This document shows positions 47,272 through 57,353 of a stretch of 64,000 nucleotides of DNA, piece by piece. Each line of letters opens with the position of its first letter. Position 1 is the first letter of the stretch. The position numbers and the translations under genes were made by a program. This DNA is from Candidatus Obscuribacteraceae bacterium (GTDB lineage Bacteria > Cyanobacteriota > Vampirovibrionia > Obscuribacterales > Obscuribacteraceae), in NCBI GenBank assembly GCA_044226015.1, contig JBGAHS010000009.1, forward strand, positions 320,001 through 384,000. Reading direction: 5' to 3'. Below the pieces are notes generated by a model that was not told where the DNA came from, did not search any database, and saw nothing but the letters and a program-made list of their open reading frames with translations.

Positions 47272-48180
47272 TTATCGAGTCTGCGTGCCAGTAAGAAGCC
47301 GCTCGCGTATGTGATCTGCGAGAATTTTGTAAGAGGCTGCTAGCCTGGATTTCTCCTCCAGAACTGCTCCTTTATTGATCGCGATTGTTGATGATCTGTG
47401 GTCACTGGGTAACTCATGGAAGATTTTTATTCCCCGTTTCTTCAGTGCAGTTGCAGTCTTAGTGGATGGACTTGTAGACAAAACTATCATTCTTGCAATT
47501 GCGATAAAAAGAGCACTTGCAATGACAACTACCGTTACTGAGCTGCTAGAATCCGTCTTTGCAAAAGACAGAATAAGCAAAAGTATCAGGCAAGAAAGAG
47601 CTACGAATCTCTCTATTATGGGATTTCCCATTTCTCTATGGCTTATCACGAAGAGTTCTTTACCATTTAACGGTTTGAAGCGAGGGCTATTGAGCAGTAA
47701 TTTGAAATCGATGGCTGCATTTGCAGCCTGGGGAGAGTCTGAGGCAATGTAGAGAATAAGATCTGATTTCATCATTGCCATTTTGCTTAGCTCGACATGG
47801 TGTGGATGTGGAAGGTCTATCACAACAAAATCAAATTCCATTTTGCATTGATCAAAAAGTTCCTTCATTGCCTCGTCCACATCTTCTGCAAATTGTCCGT
47901 AGCCGATCATCGGGAATCCAACAGCATATAGATCTGCAGAAATGTTGATGGCGAAATCTGAGATTTTGTTTGCATCAGAGTTGCTCAAGGCTGATTTGCG
48001 AAATGCTTTTTGTGCGTCCTGGTTCAAGTAAAGAAGAGCGACACTGAAATCCAAATTCAAGTCGATAAGGCAACACTTGCCAGATTTGGACAATTGGTGA
48101 GCGAGCTGCACAGCTGAGAATGTCACGCCTTGCCCGCCAATCGCACTATATACCGAAATAACCAGGCTCTTCTTGTTCAT
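47272..48180 (-). CDS. CpaE/TadZ-like ParA-superfamily protein with inserted hydrophobic hairpin
   Basis: SAIGGQGVT, LIDLN, FVVIDLP, AINKG. Confidence 0.7.
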   Translation of the reverse strand: MNKKSLVISVYSAIGGQGVTFSAVQLAHQLSKSGKCCLIDLNLDFSVALLYLNQDAQKAFRKSALSNSDANKISDFAINISADLYAVGFPMIGYGQFAEDVDEAMKELFDQCKMEFDFVVIDLPHPHHVELSKMAMMKSDLILYIASDSPQAANAAIDFKLLLNSPRFKPLNGKELFVISHREMGNPIIERFVALSCLILLLILSFAKTDSSSSVTVVVIASALFIAIARMIVLSTSPSTKTATALKKRGIKIFHELPSDHRSSTIAINKGAVLEEKSRLAASYKILADHIRERLLTGTQTR

Positions 48181-48869
48181 GACTGCTGAAACTCAGAGAG
48201 TAGTTTTGACAACAGTAGTTTTATGCTGTTGGCAAAGGCACCATTAACGCTGAGTTTTGATTTTCCTAAAAGTGAAGGGTCAACTGCAATTTCATGAAAA
48301 GGCGATTGACCCAGTTTTGCATGAATTTCATCAACTATTGCTTTGGGCTGCCAACTTGTTTTGTTTATGACAACTCTGCATTTGTCACGAACCGAATCGG
48401 GTGAGCCTTCCAAAAATGCCTTGGTTGCAGCAATCTTCGACCAGTGGTTTTCTGTTAGCAGAATGATTGTGTCAGCTATATCAAGACCAGCTTGCAATTC
48501 TGGAGCTAGGAAAGTGGAGGGTAAATCGATAACAGTAAATTGAAACACCTTTTGACAATTAGAAAAGTGATTTTTCCAGTCATGCAAGTCTGATACTGTC
48601 GATGGTGGCGCTGGAAAAAACTTCAATTTGTTTTGCCCAGTGACGGTTAATTGCGGAATAAATGGTGAGTTCAGATTGATGGCTACTGGAAGGCGGTCTT
48701 GTGGTAAAGATGCATTCGTCTTCAGTAATGAGCCGATGTTTGAGAAATCTGAATGCGTGTCTACAATTGCAGTTTCTGATTTCTCTGCAAACCTATGAGC
48801 CAGGTGCACAGCCACGGTGCTTACACCAACACCGCCACTTGGACTGAAGACTGCAAAGATCTTGTTCAT
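48177..48869 (-). CDS. CpaE/TadZ-like ParA-superfamily protein
   Basis: SPSGGVGVST, IVD, TVIDLP, VVINK. Confidence 0.75.
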   Translation of the reverse strand: MNKIFAVFSPSGGVGVSTVAVHLAHRFAEKSETAIVDTHSDFSNIGSLLKTNASLPQDRLPVAINLNSPFIPQLTVTGQNKLKFFPAPPSTVSDLHDWKNHFSNCQKVFQFTVIDLPSTFLAPELQAGLDIADTIILLTENHWSKIAATKAFLEGSPDSVRDKCRVVINKTSWQPKAIVDEIHAKLGQSPFHEIAVDPSLLGKSKLSVNGAFANSIKLLLSKLLSEFQQS

Positions 48870-49004
48870 GATGCATTTAAGATAACATGCCCATCTTTGT
48901 TGAGGAATACTTTTTGCCGGGCGGGCTTCGTAAGCAAAATGCGCTTCTAACTAGGATCGGAAGCTGCTTCAATTTGCTGTTCTCAACCAGAGTATTTTAA
49001 AAGC

Positions 49005-49032
49005 AAAAAAGCGAGCATATAGCTCGCTTTTT
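49005..49032 (-). terminator. Intrinsic terminator of the 16S transcript
   Basis: Minus strand GCGAGC-TATAT-GCTCGC-TTTTTT. Confidence 0.8.
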
Positions 49033-49260
49033 AGATGTATCAAGATTTGAACCTTGATGACTGAATAGCCTCGAACGTCCTGTCTACCTCTTCTTAACTA
49101 GTATTTGAGTAGATCCTATTTTTTTTAATCCGACTAGTTAAGCATCACTGGTACCGACCTGTGAGATTGTGCTTTTGAAGTCAAAGCCCGTGAGAGCATT
49201 TGACCGCACCTTTGTTGGAAGTCAACCCAATATACACCATGGGTCTATCCAAAATCTCCC

Positions 49261-50756
<1,496 letters not shown>

Positions 50757-50904
50757 TAGACTCGACTGGAGTACAGTCATGTCTAAGAGTGTTTGAAAGC
50801 CTACTCAAATTCTTGACAGGATTCGTCTTTGGCTATTCAGTTATCAGGGTTCAAAATTTCGCTCGCTCGCAGCGATTTGCACGCCGCATCTCGAACGTTC
50901 ATAA

Positions 50905-50933
50905 ATAGTACCAAGCGCAATCCGAAGTGTCAA
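50905..50933 (-). promoter_or_regulatory. Sigma70-type rRNA promoter
   Basis: TTGACA-17 bp-TACTAT with extended TGn, ~150 nt upstream of the 16S. Confidence 0.85.
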
Positions 50934-51244
50934 ATCTCGAAACCCACAAAACAGGTGATCTTGTAGTTCTGTGAATAGATTTCCTGTACAGGTTTCCTTA
51001 AGGATCCATTTTGGCATCTATTGAAGTACCGGTAAATAAGGGCTTTTCGGCGATCAAGATTTTGGCTCTAGAAATCAAAAAACGTTTGATCGTTGTGTCA
51101 AACATCATGCATTTTTTTCTTGATTCGATATTTTCGGGTCCGGAAATCCCGCTTTTCAAGCCGAACTTGCATACATATATAAGTACTGGATGCTTAGCGT
51201 TTGATAAGAAACGGATTCAAAATGCTGGAAATTCCTGTGCTAAT

Positions 51245-52387
51245 TCAGAAGGAATTGCGCAGTTCTCTCGCGAGAATATTGGGTGATGTAGCCTTTCTTG
51301 CCCCAGTGATCACATACACTCTAGATCCACTTGTTCCACACATAAGATAGGAATCGGACATCTTACAGATGAGTTCGTTGTTTCCACGCTGCACAGTTTT
51401 TTTGCTCAAAGAAGCCATGTTTTCTGCGTATGTGTTGAATGTGTTTTGTGCCGTGCCTGAGTTGGAATATTCAGTAAGAAGCAGTTTCAGTCGTTCTGCA
51501 ATTGGTCTTGAATAAGCGTAGTCAGCATAAGCTGCGCCTTGAGAATGGTCCAAATTCAACGACTCAATAAAAGGTACATTCGAATAATGCATGGCTGACT
51601 TAGATCCCATGAAGTATCTCTCGCTGCCTTTCAATCTCTCAAAATGAGGCAGGGCTGCAATAACTTTCGGTTCTTTCGATTCTGCTTGTTTCGTCGGAAT
51701 CAAGGACGTTATTTTGTCGGCCAGCTTGATGAGGACTTCTTTTGCTTCATCATCATCTTCTTCAGAACTATCCAGTATGAGCAGGAACTTAGCAGAGTGG
51801 AACGTGATGCTTCTCTCGTCCTCTGATGAGCCATCTCCTCTAGCTATAAAAGTAGATGAGCCCTCCCTCATAGTTGAATATGCACCGAAGGCTCCGTCAG
51901 AAGTTTTGAAACGCAAGAGATAGACTGTGCAAACTCTATGTCCACGCTTGAATTGTTTTTCCGTGACATTGCTGCAGCCATATTCAATTAGTACAGAGCT
52001 TGGCTTTCGTGCAATTTCCTCAATGGGTTTATTGTCACTATTTAGTAACTGGTTTTCGGCAAGATGTATGGAACTGCCTGCTTTTGCTTCCCATCCTTGA
52101 ACCGAAAGCGTGTCAAGAAAAGCTGCATCACGCTCGCCATCGGAGGTGAAAATTCTAGGGGACGGTGCAACTGGTGGCATCGATGAAGCCTTCGTTACAG
52201 AGTCTAAAACTGGTGCTTGTTGAATATATGTACCGGGTTTAGTGCTGGTAGATTGCTTCTTTTGTTCTGTCTCGTCAGCGTACGAAACGTCCATTCCAAG
52301 CCCAACACAAAGCAAAATGGCTTGATAGAAAGCATGACACTTTCGCAAAGCTACCTTCTTATATATAGGATGGATTTTTTCGAGCAT
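51245..52387 (-). CDS. Exported protein, DUF6599-like
   Basis: Signal-like N-terminus; VYLLRFKTSDGAFGAYS motif; family call tentative. Confidence 0.65.
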   Translation of the reverse strand: MLEKIHPIYKKVALRKCHAFYQAILLCVGLGMDVSYADETEQKKQSTSTKPGTYIQQAPVLDSVTKASSMPPVAPSPRIFTSDGERDAAFLDTLSVQGWEAKAGSSIHLAENQLLNSDNKPIEEIARKPSSVLIEYGCSNVTEKQFKRGHRVCTVYLLRFKTSDGAFGAYSTMREGSSTFIARGDGSSEDERSITFHSAKFLLILDSSEEDDDEAKEVLIKLADKITSLIPTKQAESKEPKVIAALPHFERLKGSERYFMGSKSAMHYSNVPFIESLNLDHSQGAAYADYAYSRPIAERLKLLLTEYSNSGTAQNTFNTYAENMASLSKKTVQRGNNELICKMSDSYLMCGTSGSRVYVITGARKATSPNILARELRNSF

Positions 52388-52619
52388 CTAAAAATCACCC
52401 GAGTAACTCATCGAAGTAAAGCAGATTCCTGCTTATAAGAATACACAAGTTTCTACTTATTAAATCCTGTTATTGTCATGTGGAGAGCGGCTGCTGCGGC
52501 TCTTTGTGATTGTACTTTCATGATTGCCATTTCATTCACCTGGCTCTTGTTGCCGAAAGCATGAGTTTCGGCTGCTCGTGATATTTATATTTTGCTGTCA
52601 CCGCTGGTGGTATCAAGTC

Positions 52620-52651
52620 AAAGAGCTCACCTGGGCGGAGGTGAGCTCTTT
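52620..52651. terminator. Strong hairpin, probable terminator of a minus-strand intergenic RNA
   Basis: AAAGAGCTCACCT-N6-AGGTGAGCTCTTT. Confidence 0.7.
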
Positions 52652-52652
52652 A

Positions 52653-52774
52653 TTTGGGCTATGTATTACCGGGTGCTTTGAGTGAGGGAGGGAGGTTGAA
52701 CCCGGTAATTTTGTTTTGGGCTATGTATTGTCGGATGCTTTTGAGTGAGGGAGGGAGGTTGAACCCGACAATTT
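52653..52774 (-). ncRNA. Candidate structured RNA: two tandem ~60-nt hairpins with CU-rich loops
   Basis: Direct repeat with period 62; compensatory stem changes; near-identical loops. Confidence 0.6.
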
Positions 52775-53119
52775 CGTTTTCGTGGTCAGCAATCAATTCT
52801 CATTTGAATGTGAACGGGGGGGCGATGTCCTTGATTCATGAGTCTTGCTTGCTGTTTTGGCTTTCGCCGTTTCGGTCTCCTATTGTGTTCCGCTTGCGCG
52901 GTGCGTTTCATGCTTATAACTTTATTCTCGCTGATGGATCTTTTTCGGGCACGCTTGTGACTTTTTTGGGGCGGCGTCTTAAATCAGTTTCTTCAGAAAC
53001 ATCAGGACAAAGCAAACTAGCATTCAGGGAAAACCCCAGCTTGCATTCAACCTATTTCTGGCAGATGTTGAATCCCCTTAGGTCTAGACTGAGAAAGTTA
53101 GATAAAAGAGGAATGCGCT

Positions 53120-54166
53120 ATGTCGTCGAAACGCTTACTGCTCGCTTCAGCTTGCCTCGTTGCTGGGTCCATCCTCCTATGTAGCGGCATCCAGGCAAAA
53201 GACGCTGAGCCTTCAAAAGCTAAGCCTAAAATTGATTTGGCATTTTGTATCGATACAACAGGTTCGATGCAAGGTGAAATCGATGTGGTAAAGACCAAAA
53301 CAAAGGAAATCGTAGCAAAGTTGAGCGGAACGAAGCCCATTCCTGAGATTCGCGTTGGGCTTGTTGCTTATCGAGATCGCGGTGATTCTTATGTGACCAA
53401 AGTCTTCCAGTTTTCAGGAAATGTTGACCAGGTTGTTAAAGATATATCGTCTTTGCAGGCTGATGGTGGTGGAGATGAACCCGAAGCTGTGAACGAGGCC
53501 CTGCACGCAGCAGTGCACGACCTGAGCTGGAGCAATGACAAAAAAGCCGTCAAGCTTCTTTTCCTCATTGGCGATGCTGGTCCTAGCACTTATCCAAATG
53601 ATTACAATTGGTCTACCGAGAGTAAACAGGCTATTGCTAAGGGAATCCAAATTAACACTATTGCCTGCGGCAATATGGCCGCATCAAGCGCTGCGCATGA
53701 AGTTTTTGAAAAAATTGCAAAGTTATCCGACGGCAAAAGTGAATTTCTAACTTACAAGCAAGACATTGTTGATGCTAGAACTGGTAAGCATGAGATGTTG
53801 GTTGCTTCGGGTGGCAAGACATATAAACTCTCCAAGCCTTCGTCTTATAGTTGGAAATCTGGCGCCGATAGCTTGATGGCTCGAGGTGCATTGGCTCCTC
53901 TTCCATCTGCATCGTATACTTCGAGTCTTGCTGGTAGTCATGCAAGTGACGCAGGGGCAAGCTACGGTGAAGGGGCGACGAGTTTCGCGGCGCCTATGGC
54001 ACCTTCAGCTAGAGTTGCAGGACGATTGCATCCTTCTGCAACATCGATGCGAGCTGCATCCTACGGTGCAAGTTCTGTCGGTCGATCTGAAAGCAATCTC
54101 GATGATATTGTTTTGGGTGCCACCAAAGAAGCTGCAAAAAAGAAGGCAAACATCGAGTACAAATAA
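53120..54166 (+). CDS. Secreted VWA-domain protein
   Basis: Signal peptide, MIDAS DTTGSM, VAYRD, GGGDEPEA, IGDA. Confidence 0.9.
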   Translation: MSSKRLLLASACLVAGSILLCSGIQAKDAEPSKAKPKIDLAFCIDTTGSMQGEIDVVKTKTKEIVAKLSGTKPIPEIRVGLVAYRDRGDSYVTKVFQFSGNVDQVVKDISSLQADGGGDEPEAVNEALHAAVHDLSWSNDKKAVKLLFLIGDAGPSTYPNDYNWSTESKQAIAKGIQINTIACGNMAASSAAHEVFEKIAKLSDGKSEFLTYKQDIVDARTGKHEMLVASGGKTYKLSKPSSYSWKSGADSLMARGALAPLPSASYTSSLAGSHASDAGASYGEGATSFAAPMAPSARVAGRLHPSATSMRAASYGASSVGRSESNLDDIVLGATKEAAKKKANIEYK

Positions 54167-54186
54167 TCTAGTCCATTGCGGAAAAG

Positions 54187-54219
54187 AAAAGGGATGCGAG
54201 GTGTGTCGCATCCCTTTTT
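54187..54219. terminator. Bidirectional terminator
   Basis: AAAAGGGATGCGA-N6-TCGCATCCCTTTT between convergent genes. Confidence 0.85.
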
Positions 54220-54220
54220 A

Positions 54221-55651
54221 CTAATATTTTTTCTTGTAGCGTCCTTGCACAATTGCGTCGAATATTTCTCCCGGCGCGAGATGTTCGTTGCTGTTCATCA
54301 CTCTATCGTAGAGCTCGTCTGGCAATACCCGCAAAACGGTCATCAGTCCTTTTACGCCTGACTGCCATCCTTTCCTCATTCCACGAACTTCTCGCCTGGA
54401 AAGAATTTTTGCCATTCGCTCGGGGCTCATTTCGTCGCTCATCATCATTCCCACCATTCCCTGTGGAAATCCGGGATACTGCATTCCTTTTTCCCCTAGA
54501 ATATTTACTGGGTCTGGAGTGTCAGGCATTGCAGCGATGTATTCGTTAGTGATCGTAGCCTGTCGCATTCGAGGACCAATTTGTCTGACCATATGATTCA
54601 TCATGTGGTGGGTCATGTGGCAATGAAAAATCCAGTCACCAGGGTTGTTGGCTATAAATTCGAAATCTTGTGCCATTGCCACACCTAGGAGAGTGTTGTT
54701 TCGAGGAATCCAGGCGGACTCTGGAATTCTTCCCCCCTCAGTTCCAGTAAGCCAGAACGTGTGTCCATGGAAGTGAATCGGGTGATGTTGAACCGGGCTG
54801 AAATTAACAAGCCGAACTCTAACTCTCTCACCATGGCGCACCACCATCGGTGTTGTGAAAGGTCCCGAACGACCATTGATTGTATGCCAGTTCCAGTCCA
54901 TCAAGCTTGAATCTACAATTGACGAATTAGGACCGATATAAAAGTTCTGATATACAAGCGCGAAGTCTCTGTCAACTGAAGGTTCAAAAGCAACTCTTGG
55001 ATGAACAATGAATAGTCCCATCATCCCCATGGTTTCTTGCATAGCAACATGCGAATGGTAAAAGAACGTTCCTGTTTGGTGCAGATCTAATTCATAGACG
55101 AAGCTCTGACCAGGTTGAACTAAACTCTGAACCAAGCCTGGCACGCCATCCATTGCTATGGCTAGCTCGAAACCATGCAAGTGTAAGGAGGTTGCTTCGG
55201 GCAGATCATTATGTAGCACTATGCGTATACGGTCACCTTGATACGCTTCAATGACTGGTCCGGGTACGCTGCCGTTATAGCCCCAAACACTCATGAACTC
55301 GCCAGGCAGAAACTCTTGACGAACAACCATGCTTCTTACATGGAATTCCTTCACGCCGTTAACCATCTTGTATTCGAGTTTCTTCGAGTCTGGTGCGTGG
55401 ACTGGCACTGGCGCCTGGTTAGGTGCTCGCAAGCCAGGCATCAGTTTACCCAGATAGTACTTATTGTCTGTGGGTCCGCCGTAGCTTGGTTTATATCGAG
55501 AATACTCATGAAACTGATTCGGTTCGTTATGGCTGATTGAGATGTGCGGGGGTGAACTTGCAGCGTGCGCTTCTTTGCCCAATAGTGATGCAAGAGTGAA
55601 TGCTGACCCCGCCGAGATAAAGTCTCTTCTTGAATTTTTCTTCTCTGTCAT
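54221..55651 (-). CDS. Tat-exported two-domain multicopper oxidase
   Basis: SRRDFI Tat motif; HLHG, YHSH, HPIHFHGH, HCHMTHHM; Met-rich tail. Confidence 0.9.
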   Translation of the reverse strand: MTEKKNSRRDFISAGSAFTLASLLGKEAHAASSPPHISISHNEPNQFHEYSRYKPSYGGPTDNKYYLGKLMPGLRAPNQAPVPVHAPDSKKLEYKMVNGVKEFHVRSMVVRQEFLPGEFMSVWGYNGSVPGPVIEAYQGDRIRIVLHNDLPEATSLHLHGFELAIAMDGVPGLVQSLVQPGQSFVYELDLHQTGTFFYHSHVAMQETMGMMGLFIVHPRVAFEPSVDRDFALVYQNFYIGPNSSIVDSSLMDWNWHTINGRSGPFTTPMVVRHGERVRVRLVNFSPVQHHPIHFHGHTFWLTGTEGGRIPESAWIPRNNTLLGVAMAQDFEFIANNPGDWIFHCHMTHHMMNHMVRQIGPRMRQATITNEYIAAMPDTPDPVNILGEKGMQYPGFPQGMVGMMMSDEMSPERMAKILSRREVRGMRKGWQSGVKGLMTVLRVLPDELYDRVMNSNEHLAPGEIFDAIVQGRYKKKY

Positions 55652-55655
55652 GCTT

Positions 55656-57353
55656 TTATCTCGGCTTTGGAACTGCATCGATGTGACCTGGAGGATCTAT
55701 TCCCGGAGGCGGCGTCAACGCTCCTGTCAGAACGAAACCATTCAGAAGTGACTCCGCCTTACGCCATGAATATAATTGATTGACGTAATCCATCCTCAGT
55801 GCAAAAAAGTCGCGCTGCGCTTCAAGCACCTCCGGCCACTCTGAGCGTGTGTTCCTGTAACTGTTTAGCATGAGGAGATAACGTTGTTCAGCCTCCGGGA
55901 GAATTGTGTTCTGATACGAAACAACATGCTGCACTGCGGATGAATAGTCAGCGTAAACTTCAGCAAGGTCTTTTCTCAACCGTAGCTCCGTGAGTTTTAC
56001 CTGTGCTTTTTGCCTTTCCAGATCCGCTTCTGCCTGTTGCACAGTGCCTTGATTGCGGTCGAAAAGCGGAATGTTCACTATGCTTACTGTTGCTTTTGCA
56101 GCAGCACCTCTATCCAGTGGATCATATCCAGCTCCACCCGAGAGCACCAGATTTGGTATCTTTTGTCTCTTTTCTCGTTTTAGGGTGATTTCATCTGATC
56201 TTAGCTTTTCGTGACTCTCTGATAACTCAGGGCTGCTCTCGAATAGATGCTTCAATGTGCTTTCCCAGCTGATTGTATCTGGGGTTCCATCGAAAGCACC
56301 ATCAGGGTTCCGATATGGCATTGTTACGCCTGCAACTGCGGTGAGTTCTTGCCAGGCACCATTCAGGTGATTCTGAGCTTCTAAAACGCTAAGCTTTTGT
56401 TTTTCCAGTCTGATTTTCGCCATATGAAGAGAAGCCGTGTTAGCCTCTCCTAGATTGAACATTTCGTTGCTTGTGAGCCAACTATCCGTTAACGACTTTT
56501 CCAATTGTTTCTCTAACTTGAGTCTTTCAAGGCATGCTTGCAGTTTGAAAAAATGGATTTTGGTATCATTAACGACTCTGTTTTGCTGAGCTAGTAGCTG
56601 TCGTTTTGATGCTTCCGCGCGTGCTTTATATTTCTCACGACTCAACTTAAGCTTTCCACCAAGAATGATTTCTTGCTCGACATAAGAACCTTGAAACTCA
56701 CCGGCACCATTTCCTGGACCTGGCAATCCCATCAAATCGCCATTATATGAAAGGCTAGGGTTAGGAAACAGTCCTGCTTGTAAAGCTTGACCCAGCGCTG
56801 CTTTTATCTGTGCTCTGGCTTGAATTAGCGTGGGGTTGTTTTCTTGTGCCATTTTGACCATTGCATCGAGAGTTATGGTCGCTGCCTCGATGGGATTTTG
56901 AACTGAGAGCCATTGTTGTTGTCGCCCAGCGGGAATTTGCTTAAGAGGCTGCGGCATATCCATAATGCCCATATCCGTGCTGGGATCCATCTTCATGCTG
57001 GGATCCATCTTCATGCTGGGATCCATCTTCATGCTGGGATCCATCTTCATGCTGGGATCCATCTTCATGCTGGGATCCATCTTCATGCTGGGATCCATCT
57101 TCATGCTGGGATCCATCTTCATGTTGGCTTCGGATTTATTTTTCTTCGCTTTACGCTGTGGAACTGCGGCAAGACTTAAGTTACTGTATCCGGTGCTCTG
57201 GGAGTAGGCACTCAGGCAACTTTGACCGAGAATCGAAAAGAACAAAACCGATATTATTACTAACTTGAATGACACAATTGAGACAATGATTCTGGCTAGA
57301 CTAATGCATAGTACCATCGTGTGGATACGGGTACAATCAGGTCCAAAGAGCAT
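55656..57353 (-). CDS. TolC/CzcC-family outer-membrane efflux protein with Met-rich repeat
   Basis: AQENNPTL, QAGLFPNP, LGGKL, IPLFDRNQG; start uncertain (57317 possible). Confidence 0.88.
   Translation of the reverse strand: MLFGPDCTRIHTMVLCISLARIIVSIVSFKLVIISVLFFSILGQSCLSAYSQSTGYSNLSLAAVPQRKAKKNKSEANMKMDPSMKMDPSMKMDPSMKMDPSMKMDPSMKMDPSMKMDPSMKMDPSTDMGIMDMPQPLKQIPAGRQQQWLSVQNPIEAATITLDAMVKMAQENNPTLIQARAQIKAALGQALQAGLFPNPSLSYNGDLMGLPGPGNGAGEFQGSYVEQEIILGGKLKLSREKYKARAEASKRQLLAQQNRVVNDTKIHFFKLQACLERLKLEKQLEKSLTDSWLTSNEMFNLGEANTASLHMAKIRLEKQKLSVLEAQNHLNGAWQELTAVAGVTMPYRNPDGAFDGTPDTISWESTLKHLFESSPELSESHEKLRSDEITLKREKRQKIPNLVLSGGAGYDPLDRGAAAKATVSIVNIPLFDRNQGTVQQAEADLERQKAQVKLTELRLRKDLAEVYADYSSAVQHVVSYQNTILPEAEQRYLLMLNSYRNTRSEWPEVLEAQRDFFALRMDYVNQLYSWRKAESLLNGFVLTGALTPPPGIDPPGHIDAVPKPR
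56979..57122 (-). repeat. 8 perfect 18-bp tandem repeats encoding (MKMDPS)8
   Basis: GCTGGGATCCATCTTCAT x 8 on the + strand. Confidence 0.98.

What the first reader, a model, noticed from the sequence alone, without database searches (positions are those of the whole stretch)
52620..52912. Candidate ncRNA with two covarying hairpins presenting anti-Shine-Dalgarno-like CCUCCCUCCC loops
Seen: two repeats 62 bp apart. Copy 1 stem is ATTACCGGGT/ACCCGGTAAT (52665-74/52700-09). Copy 2 stem is ATTGTCGG/CCGACAAT (52727-34/52765-72). The AC>GT change in one arm is matched by GT>AC in the other, giving two compensatory pairs, while the loops differ only by one extra T. On the minus strand the loop reads UCAACCUCCCUCCCUCACUCAAA. 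A 13-bp terminator-like hairpin follows directly. Upstream lie GNRA-capped hairpins (CCGC-GCAA-GCGG, GGC-GAAA-GCC). Known: alphaproteobacterial cuckoo/CcsR RNAs and staphylococcal RsaE use repeated C-rich loops to pair with ribosome-binding sites. Inference: an analogous modular sRNA in this lineage. On the + strand the loops are GGA-rich and could be protein-binding sites instead.
Basis: partly seen in the sequence, partly recalled or inferred. Interest (0 to 1): 0.72.

Follow-up and report, generated by a model that had tools for sequence, protein, structure and literature searches.

The report
C-rich-loop small RNA of Obscuribacterales
Between two genes of an uncultured, non-photosynthetic relative of cyanobacteria lies a likely small RNA gene whose duplicated hairpin shows a cytosine-rich loop predicted to block ribosome-binding sites, and three related species keep a single similar hairpin at the same spot, in a cluster of likely small RNAs that matches no catalogued family.

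Summary
A 62/63-bp hairpin module is duplicated; 5 of its 6 substitutions lie in the 10-bp stem and all keep pairing on the minus strand (two compensatory pairs, one G-U wobble; chance about 1e-4). The minus strand folds far better than shuffles (z -5.1; plus strand -0.9). The host is an Obscuribacterales bacterium. In 3 of 7 same-genus genomes the same place and strand, just upstream of the DUF6599 gene, holds a single hairpin with a C-rich loop, a different stem and a terminator. It is the last unit of an array of 1-3 predicted small-RNA genes that follow an OmpR-type regulator gene and carry direct-repeat promoters. The window has lost that regulator and promoter at a local inversion. No Rfam family reaches threshold (cuckoo ar14: 20 of 59 bits). 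The genome has no detectable CsrA, which weakens the plus-strand reading. Best reading: a trans-acting anti-Shine-Dalgarno sRNA working like LhrC, RsaE or cuckoo RNAs, but a separate genus-restricted family. Against: no expression data, no standout target, and sequence models alone do not link the window to the relatives. The scan has noted C-rich-loop RNAs in other lineages, not this DNA.

The parts
52613..52911 (-). Predicted small RNA, about 299 nt. The 5' end is inferred and uncertain; a shorter form starting nearer 52790 is possible.
   Evidence: Fold -79.4 kcal/mol, z -5.13 against 100 shuffles; plus strand z -0.94; 52613-52790 alone z -5.57. Start inferred from likeness to the predicted start context of the relatives' units (read).
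52919..52924 (-). Possible -10 hexamer, 7 nt before the inferred start
   Evidence: Read by eye against the relatives' units. Not called by the sigma-70 scan. Weak.
52890..52901 (-). 4-bp GNRA-capped hairpin
   Evidence: Minimum-energy fold
52859..52868 (-). 3-bp GNRA-capped hairpin
   Evidence: Minimum-energy fold
52787..52854 (-). Long interrupted hairpin whose 11-nt loop (52816-52826) holds a run of seven C; a further possible C-rich display
   Evidence: Minimum-energy fold; not seen in relatives
52727..52772 (-). Module A: 10-bp stem (one G-U) with a 26-nt C-rich loop
52710..52726 (-). Single-stranded A-rich linker; a similar linker precedes the hairpin in the relatives' units
52665..52709 (-). 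Module B: 10-bp stem with a 25-nt C-rich loop
52620..52651 (-). 13-bp terminator-like hairpin with a C-rich cap. The U-tract is modest on the minus strand and better on the plus strand, so it is probably bidirectional.
   Evidence: Not listed by the terminator scan.
52509..52514 (-). Conserved -10-like hexamer of the DUF6599 gene, downstream of the terminator, suggesting that gene has its own promoter
   Evidence: The same hexamer is visible before the DUF6599 gene in G003, G004, G005, G006 and G007 (read by eye)
51245..52387 (-). DUF6599 gene, the syntenic anchor, followed by the 16S rRNA gene (49264-50756)
52975..54166 (+). vWA-domain gene (53120-54166) with its conserved upstream region; inverted here relative to same-genus genomes

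Best explanation
This is likely a stand-alone small RNA gene on the minus strand, whose two hairpins would hold C-rich loops open to pair with G-rich Shine-Dalgarno sequences of mRNAs and so would block their translation. Shown: the duplicated module, the stem-only compensatory divergence, the strand-specific fold, the terminator-like hairpin, and Shine-Dalgarno use in this genome. Inferred: transcription, the 5' end, homology to the single-hairpin 'type C' units at the same locus in G004, G006 and G007, and the pairing mechanism. Inferred history: the ancestor carried an array of small-RNA genes behind an OmpR-type regulator with direct-repeat promoters. In this genome the regulator and the 'type A' siblings were lost around an inversion of the vWA gene, the type C RNA survived under a different promoter, and its loop module was duplicated.
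For: Compensation about 1e-4 by simulation. Fold z -5.1 minus versus -0.9 plus. G-U wobble on the minus strand only. In 3 of 7 same-genus genomes a hairpin with the same 7-nt C-rich loop core, a different stem sequence, an A-rich linker and a terminator lies on the same strand, between the regulator gene and DUF6599; these fold at z -3.8, -6.0 and -3.7. Such hairpins are rare: 15 other sites on both strands of 8.19 Mb, 5 of them outside ORFs. The G007 stem has three G-U pairs, two of them at positions next to or including one that covaries between the window's copies (read by eye). The window genome falls in a 100/99-supported clade with G002, G004, G006 and G007 on the DUF6599 tree. Shine-Dalgarno motifs are enriched 8-22-fold before starts. 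An Hfq-like match lies just under the cut-off (25.6 of 27 bits). Precedent: LhrC uses C-rich loops, including its terminator loop, to bind a Shine-Dalgarno region (PMC4132741, passages).
Against: A sequence profile built from the three relatives alone does not find the window element in its own genome (not among hits at E <= 10). A covariance model from the window's two copies scores the relatives' modules at only 8.9 bits or less. The regulator box is absent before the element (best score -12.9 versus 22-39 in training). Shuffled loops pair with start regions as well as or better than the real loop (769 versus 698-1101 sites; best -27.1 versus -26.1 to -31.9 kcal/mol). The relatives' units also fold well on the opposite strand (z -2.9 to -3.7). 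G002, in the same clade, has no such unit at this locus. The loop motif was defined after seeing the relatives.
Confidence: 0.55

Rival explanations
1. A real minus-strand small RNA whose C-rich loops and linkers bind a protein (a titrating sponge) rather than mRNAs; the duplication adds binding sites.
For: Loops and linkers are identical between copies while the stems drift. No target stands out. A short linker motif recurs in both type A and type C units.
Against: No candidate protein was identified; DUF1127 was not found in the genome. The loops are complementary to the Shine-Dalgarno motifs this genome uses.
Confidence: 0.15
2. A decaying remnant: once-functional type C RNA left without its regulator and promoter after the inversion, now silent.
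For: The regulator gene and direct-repeat box are gone. G002 seems to have lost the whole array.
Against: After the duplication, 5 of 6 substitutions kept pairing and the loops stayed identical, which points to selection.
Confidence: 0.1
3. A cis-acting leader or attenuator of the DUF6599 gene rather than a free RNA.
For: It lies upstream on the same strand in all four genomes, and the minus-strand U-tract is modest.
Against: A conserved -10-like hexamer sits between terminator and gene in six genomes (read by eye). Genes and other insertions intervene or the unit is absent in G002, G003 and G005. No antiterminator fold is apparent.
Confidence: 0.08
4. A plus-strand element: GGA-rich loops binding CsrA/RsmA in a long leader of the vWA gene, tandem terminators, or a coding repeat in the 176-codon ORF at 52654-53184.
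For: Both hairpins are followed by T-rich runs on the plus strand, and the ORF repeats nine residues in frame.
Against: No CsrA in this genome (92% complete) or in 5 of 5 relatives searched. The plus-strand fold is no better than shuffles and has an A-C mismatch. The ORF has no Pfam match, and its only match in 7 relatives is stop-ridden non-coding DNA. The vWA gene's own conserved upstream region lies beyond 52975.
Confidence: 0.07
5. A chance tandem duplication of a palindrome whose arms were homogenised by template switching during DNA replication, with no RNA function.
For: The doublet change is its own reverse complement across the arms, as a template switch would give (known mechanism, recalled).
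Against: It does not explain the wobble-preserving change, the G-U pairs in the G007 stem, or C-rich loops in unrelated stems at the same locus in three other species.
Confidence: 0.05

Closest known systems
LhrC1-5 of Listeria monocytogenes (PMC4132741, passages read)
   Same: [quoted passage not shown] The relatives' array behind a response regulator and the C-rich terminator cap look alike.
   Different: Different phylum and no Rfam match. The window copy has two large loops and has lost the regulator box. Function here is untested.
Cuckoo RNAs: CcsR/RSs0680, ar14, NfeR (PMC4615179 and PMC8034643, passages read)
   Same: Two or more adjacent hairpins with variable, compensating stems and a constant C-rich anti-Shine-Dalgarno-like loop; hairpin and loop sizes fall inside the family's limits.
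   Different: The loop has runs of three C, not the nine-base cuckoo motif; the linker is 17 nt (family limit 10); ar14 scores 20.4 against a cut-off of 58.8; no DUF1127 gene; not an alphaproteobacterium; relatives have one module only.
csRNAs of Streptococcus (PMC4211561, passages; PMC4507080, start of abstract in a search listing)
   Same: Two to six sibling sRNAs controlled by one response regulator, partly in tandem.
   Different: No sequence match; here the siblings are of two structural types and confined to one genus.
RsaE/RoxS and RNAIII of Firmicutes (as cited in PMC4132741 and PMC4615179; otherwise recalled)
   Same: Several C-rich unpaired motifs used to seed pairing on ribosome-binding sites.
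   Different: No Rfam match; different architecture and lineage.

Membership tests
Cuckoo/CcsR (ar14, RSs0680) | 2-4 adjacent hairpins with variable, compensating stems | tested here: met
   Two modules plus a C-capped terminator; relatives have only one module plus terminator
Cuckoo/CcsR (ar14, RSs0680) | Nine-base cuckoo motif in each loop | tested here: not met
   The window loop has runs of three C. The paper's list of allowed variants is in a figure that could not be seen.
Cuckoo/CcsR (ar14, RSs0680) | Hairpin 24-50 nt, loop 9-27 nt, linker at most 10 nt | tested here: not met
   Hairpins 45-46 nt and loops 25-26 nt fit; the linker is 17 nt
Cuckoo/CcsR (ar14, RSs0680) | Rfam gathering score | tested here: not met
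   ar14 20.4 bits versus 58.8, E 1.9
Cuckoo/CcsR (ar14, RSs0680) | Alphaproteobacterial host; DUF1127 neighbour (CIN1 subgroup) | tested here: not met
   Same-genus records are Obscuribacterales; no DUF1127 found in the genome
C-rich-loop anti-Shine-Dalgarno sRNAs as a functional class (LhrC, RsaE, RNAIII) | C-rich motif in unpaired loops | tested here: met
   Predicted open loops in the window and three relatives
C-rich-loop anti-Shine-Dalgarno sRNAs as a functional class (LhrC, RsaE, RNAIII) | Own transcription unit with promoter and intrinsic terminator | tested here: inconclusive
   Terminator-like hairpin clear; promoter clear in the relatives, weak in the window
C-rich-loop anti-Shine-Dalgarno sRNAs as a functional class (LhrC, RsaE, RNAIII) | Pairs with the ribosome-binding site of specific mRNAs and represses them | tested here: inconclusive
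   Pairing to start regions exceeds that to coding interiors (769 versus 294 of 5,622 at -14 kcal/mol) but not that of shuffled loops
C-rich-loop anti-Shine-Dalgarno sRNAs as a functional class (LhrC, RsaE, RNAIII) | Expressed as a discrete RNA | not testable with these tools
   No RNA run was listed for this stretch
Response-regulator-controlled sibling sRNAs (LhrC, csRNA) | Shared regulator box before each sibling | tested here: not met
   Met by 10 units in 5 relatives, absent in the window; that the adjacent regulator binds the box is inference
CsrB/RsmZ-type sponge (plus strand) | Many GGA loops in short hairpins and a CsrA/RsmA gene in the host | tested here: not met
   No CsrA in 0 of 1 own and 0 of 5 related genomes; no Rfam match

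The most novel reading that the evidence does not exclude
A genus of Obscuribacterales carries an undescribed small-RNA regulon: an OmpR-type regulator driving a tandem array of two RNA types from direct-repeat promoters. The window shows one member escaping that control through an inversion and doubling its anti-Shine-Dalgarno module. That would be a cuckoo-like modular RNA caught while arising independently, and the first riboregulator described in the non-photosynthetic sister group of cyanobacteria.
Probability: 0.35. Interest if true: 0.62.

Novelty: new member of a known kind. Interest (0 to 1): 0.45.

Why it matters
My searches found no paper on small regulatory RNAs in Melainabacteria/Obscuribacterales (open-access library only). 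If real, this adds a family and a candidate regulon to an uncultured lineage next to cyanobacteria. It would also show how the repeated C-rich-loop design can be built by a single tandem duplication followed by stem-only compensatory change. The mechanism itself is well known from LhrC, RsaE and cuckoo RNAs, the family is confined to one genus among 104 genomes searched, and the hosts are uncultured, so the impact is moderate.

Tried and rejected
Rfam: nothing at gathering level except 16S rRNA in window 48000-57000, four relatives' loci and five module loci. tRNA/tmRNA: 0 in the window. BLAST-type search of 40 relatives: only short chance matches. Two-copy loop pattern in 104 genomes: 3 unrelated hits besides the window. 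Linker-plus-loop pattern in 107 genomes: matches in 96, i.e. noise. Sequence-only models R2 and R3 in 104 genomes: strong hits only in the training genomes, none convincing outside the genus, and no type A unit in the window's genome; only 30-35 candidates per genome were scored. Metagenome and genome scans with the DUF6599 alignment: 13 and 8 loci, no new type C unit. Viral contigs: 0 exact matches to an 18-mer. Plasmids: no match. RNA runs: none listed, which is no evidence either way. Best predicted target, the leader of an MglA-like GTPase gene (G000:C1:247499, -27.1 kcal/mol): rejected as unproven, because shuffled loops reach the same energies and the G-rich leader is also kept in G002 and G003, which lack type C. 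Covariance model R1 from the two window copies: too narrow to recover the relatives. Automatic alignments did not respect the stems, so no formal covariation count across species was made. A 41-codon minus-strand ORF starting at 52911 was not tested for homologues, and ensemble unpaired probabilities of the loops were not computed.

Full report
Observation. The two copies align over 66 columns with 6 substitutions and one gap. Five substitutions lie in the stem: four form two compensatory pairs, and the fifth (52735 versus 52673) leaves a G-U wobble on the minus strand but an A-C mismatch on the plus strand. Scattering 5 or 7 random substitutions over the module gave an intact stem with at least two double changes in 28, 54 and 232 of 500,000 trials. 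The loop core occurs nowhere else in the genome. The stretch 52613-52911 folds at z -5.13 on the minus strand and -0.94 on the plus strand.

Context. The element sits between a DUF6599 gene (minus strand, followed by 16S rRNA) and a divergent vWA gene. Same-genus records are titled Candidatus Obscuribacterales. Direct DNA search of 40 relatives found nothing beyond chance, so I went by synteny. The DUF6599 gene was found in 75 of 81 genomes and the vWA gene in 55 of 104. In G002, G004, G006 and G007 the vWA gene runs in the same direction as DUF6599; in the window it is inverted together with its conserved upstream region.

The array in relatives. In G003, G004, G005, G006 and G007 an OmpR-type response regulator gene (Pfam receiver plus Trans_reg_C) precedes DUF6599. 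Between them lie one to three short units, ten in all. Each starts with an 11-bp-spaced direct repeat and a -10-like hexamer and ends in a terminator-like hairpin. Seven are 'type A', about 100-115 nt, with a shared single-stranded motif; a short stem enclosing it is visible by eye but was not recovered by RNAalifold, which found only the terminator. Three, in G004, G006 and G007, are 'type C': a 5' hairpin, an A-rich linker, a stem of 8-13 pairs around a C-rich loop, and a terminator (fold z -6.0, -3.8, -3.7). In each case it is the unit nearest DUF6599, on the same strand as the window's element. The same box also precedes small protein genes elsewhere in G003, G004, G005 and G007 and was found in only 1 of 96 genomes outside the genus, so it looks like a genus-level regulon. 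That the adjacent regulator binds it is inference.

Is the window's RNA a type C unit? For: place, strand, order of parts, a shared 7-nt loop core in stems of different sequence, and a similar linker. Hairpins of this kind occur at 15 other sites in the whole genome, 5 outside ORFs, roughly one chance in a thousand for a given half-kilobase; the motif was chosen after seeing the data. On the DUF6599 tree the window's genome groups with G002, G004, G006 and G007 (100/99); the RpoB tree is mostly unresolved. Against: a profile from the three relatives does not retrieve the window's element, and a model from the window's copies gives the relatives at most 8.9 bits. G002 has no unit at this locus. 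Homology is therefore likely but rests on synteny and architecture. The window lacks the regulator at this locus (best match elsewhere 62% identical), the box and any type A unit. The simplest history is loss around the vWA inversion, capture of another promoter, and duplication of the module. The 5' third of the predicted RNA has no counterpart in relatives, so the start is uncertain.

Mechanism. The genome uses Shine-Dalgarno sites: 46% of 1,091 unambiguous starts carry one, versus 7% in a control window. The loops resemble the 16S 3' end. Loop pairing is stronger at start regions than inside genes (769 versus 294 of 5,622), but shuffled loops of the same composition do as well, and the best hit is no outlier. 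So the loop suits pairing with G-rich ribosome-binding sites in general, and no specific target can be named. CsrA was not found in this genome or five relatives, DUF1127 was not found, and an Hfq-like match lies just below cut-off. The 176-codon plus-strand ORF has no family and no coding homologue in 7 relatives.

Comparison. Rfam gives only a sub-threshold ar14 match on the minus strand. By the criteria in PMC4615179 (passages and section 12 read; its figure of motif variants and its supplements not seen) the element fails the cuckoo motif, linker length and host range. It works, if it works, like LhrC (PMC4132741, passages), whose copies depend on a two-component system and use C-rich loops including the terminator loop, and like the csRNAs (PMC4211561, passages). 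CcsR details come from PMC8034643 (passages). Searches pairing Melainabacteria or Obscuribacterales with sRNA terms returned 0, 0 and 1 paper (the one, PMC8066212, seen as a listing only), and the broader searches showed no relevant title; subscription journals are not covered. Models of both types found no convincing member outside the genus in 104 genomes, with limited sensitivity.

Verdict. A real, selected RNA structure (about 0.8), most likely a trans-acting anti-Shine-Dalgarno sRNA (0.55), of an uncatalogued genus-restricted family and a well-known functional kind. The earlier notes of this scan list several analogous RNAs in other lineages and none on this DNA. Interest 0.45.

Noticed in passing
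L124:3019-3367, L125:3170-3487, L126:3220-3367, L127:3503-3642, L128:2909-3054: Seven 'type A' predicted small RNAs (about 100-115 nt) with a shared promoter box, a conserved single-stranded motif and a terminator, behind an OmpR-type regulator in five genomes; no Rfam match in the four loci scanned; absent from the window's genome.
   Followed up: partly
L097, L099, L107, L108, L109, L110 (about position 1501; L107 at 567): The same direct-repeat box precedes small uncharacterised protein genes with strong G-rich ribosome-binding sites: a candidate regulon, and possible targets of the array's RNAs.
   Followed up: partly
window 52975-53120; L087:4735-4930, L088:4760-5000, L089:5680-5920, L091:5860-6230: Conserved blocks upstream of the vWA gene in five genomes, probably an alternative-sigma promoter or regulator site.
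   Followed up: no
L137:1200-1270 and L190-L194: The leader of a nearly invariant MglA-like GTPase gene keeps a hairpin followed by a G-rich stretch in the five genomes where it could be read.
   Followed up: partly
G000:C11:704343-707510 and matches: A second, divergent RNA polymerase beta-subunit gene (42% identical to the main copy) is present in the window's genome and in the relatives searched.
   Followed up: no
window 49264-50756: The 16S rRNA gene is followed within about 400 bases by protein genes (48869 downward), so it appears unlinked from 23S rRNA.
   Followed up: no
window 56965-57207: An 18-bp tandem repeat encodes a methionine-rich repeat in a TolC-like protein next to a multicopper oxidase gene, probably a copper-handling pair.
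   Followed up: no
window 52555-52575: A further small hairpin between the terminator and the DUF6599 promoter region.
   Followed up: no
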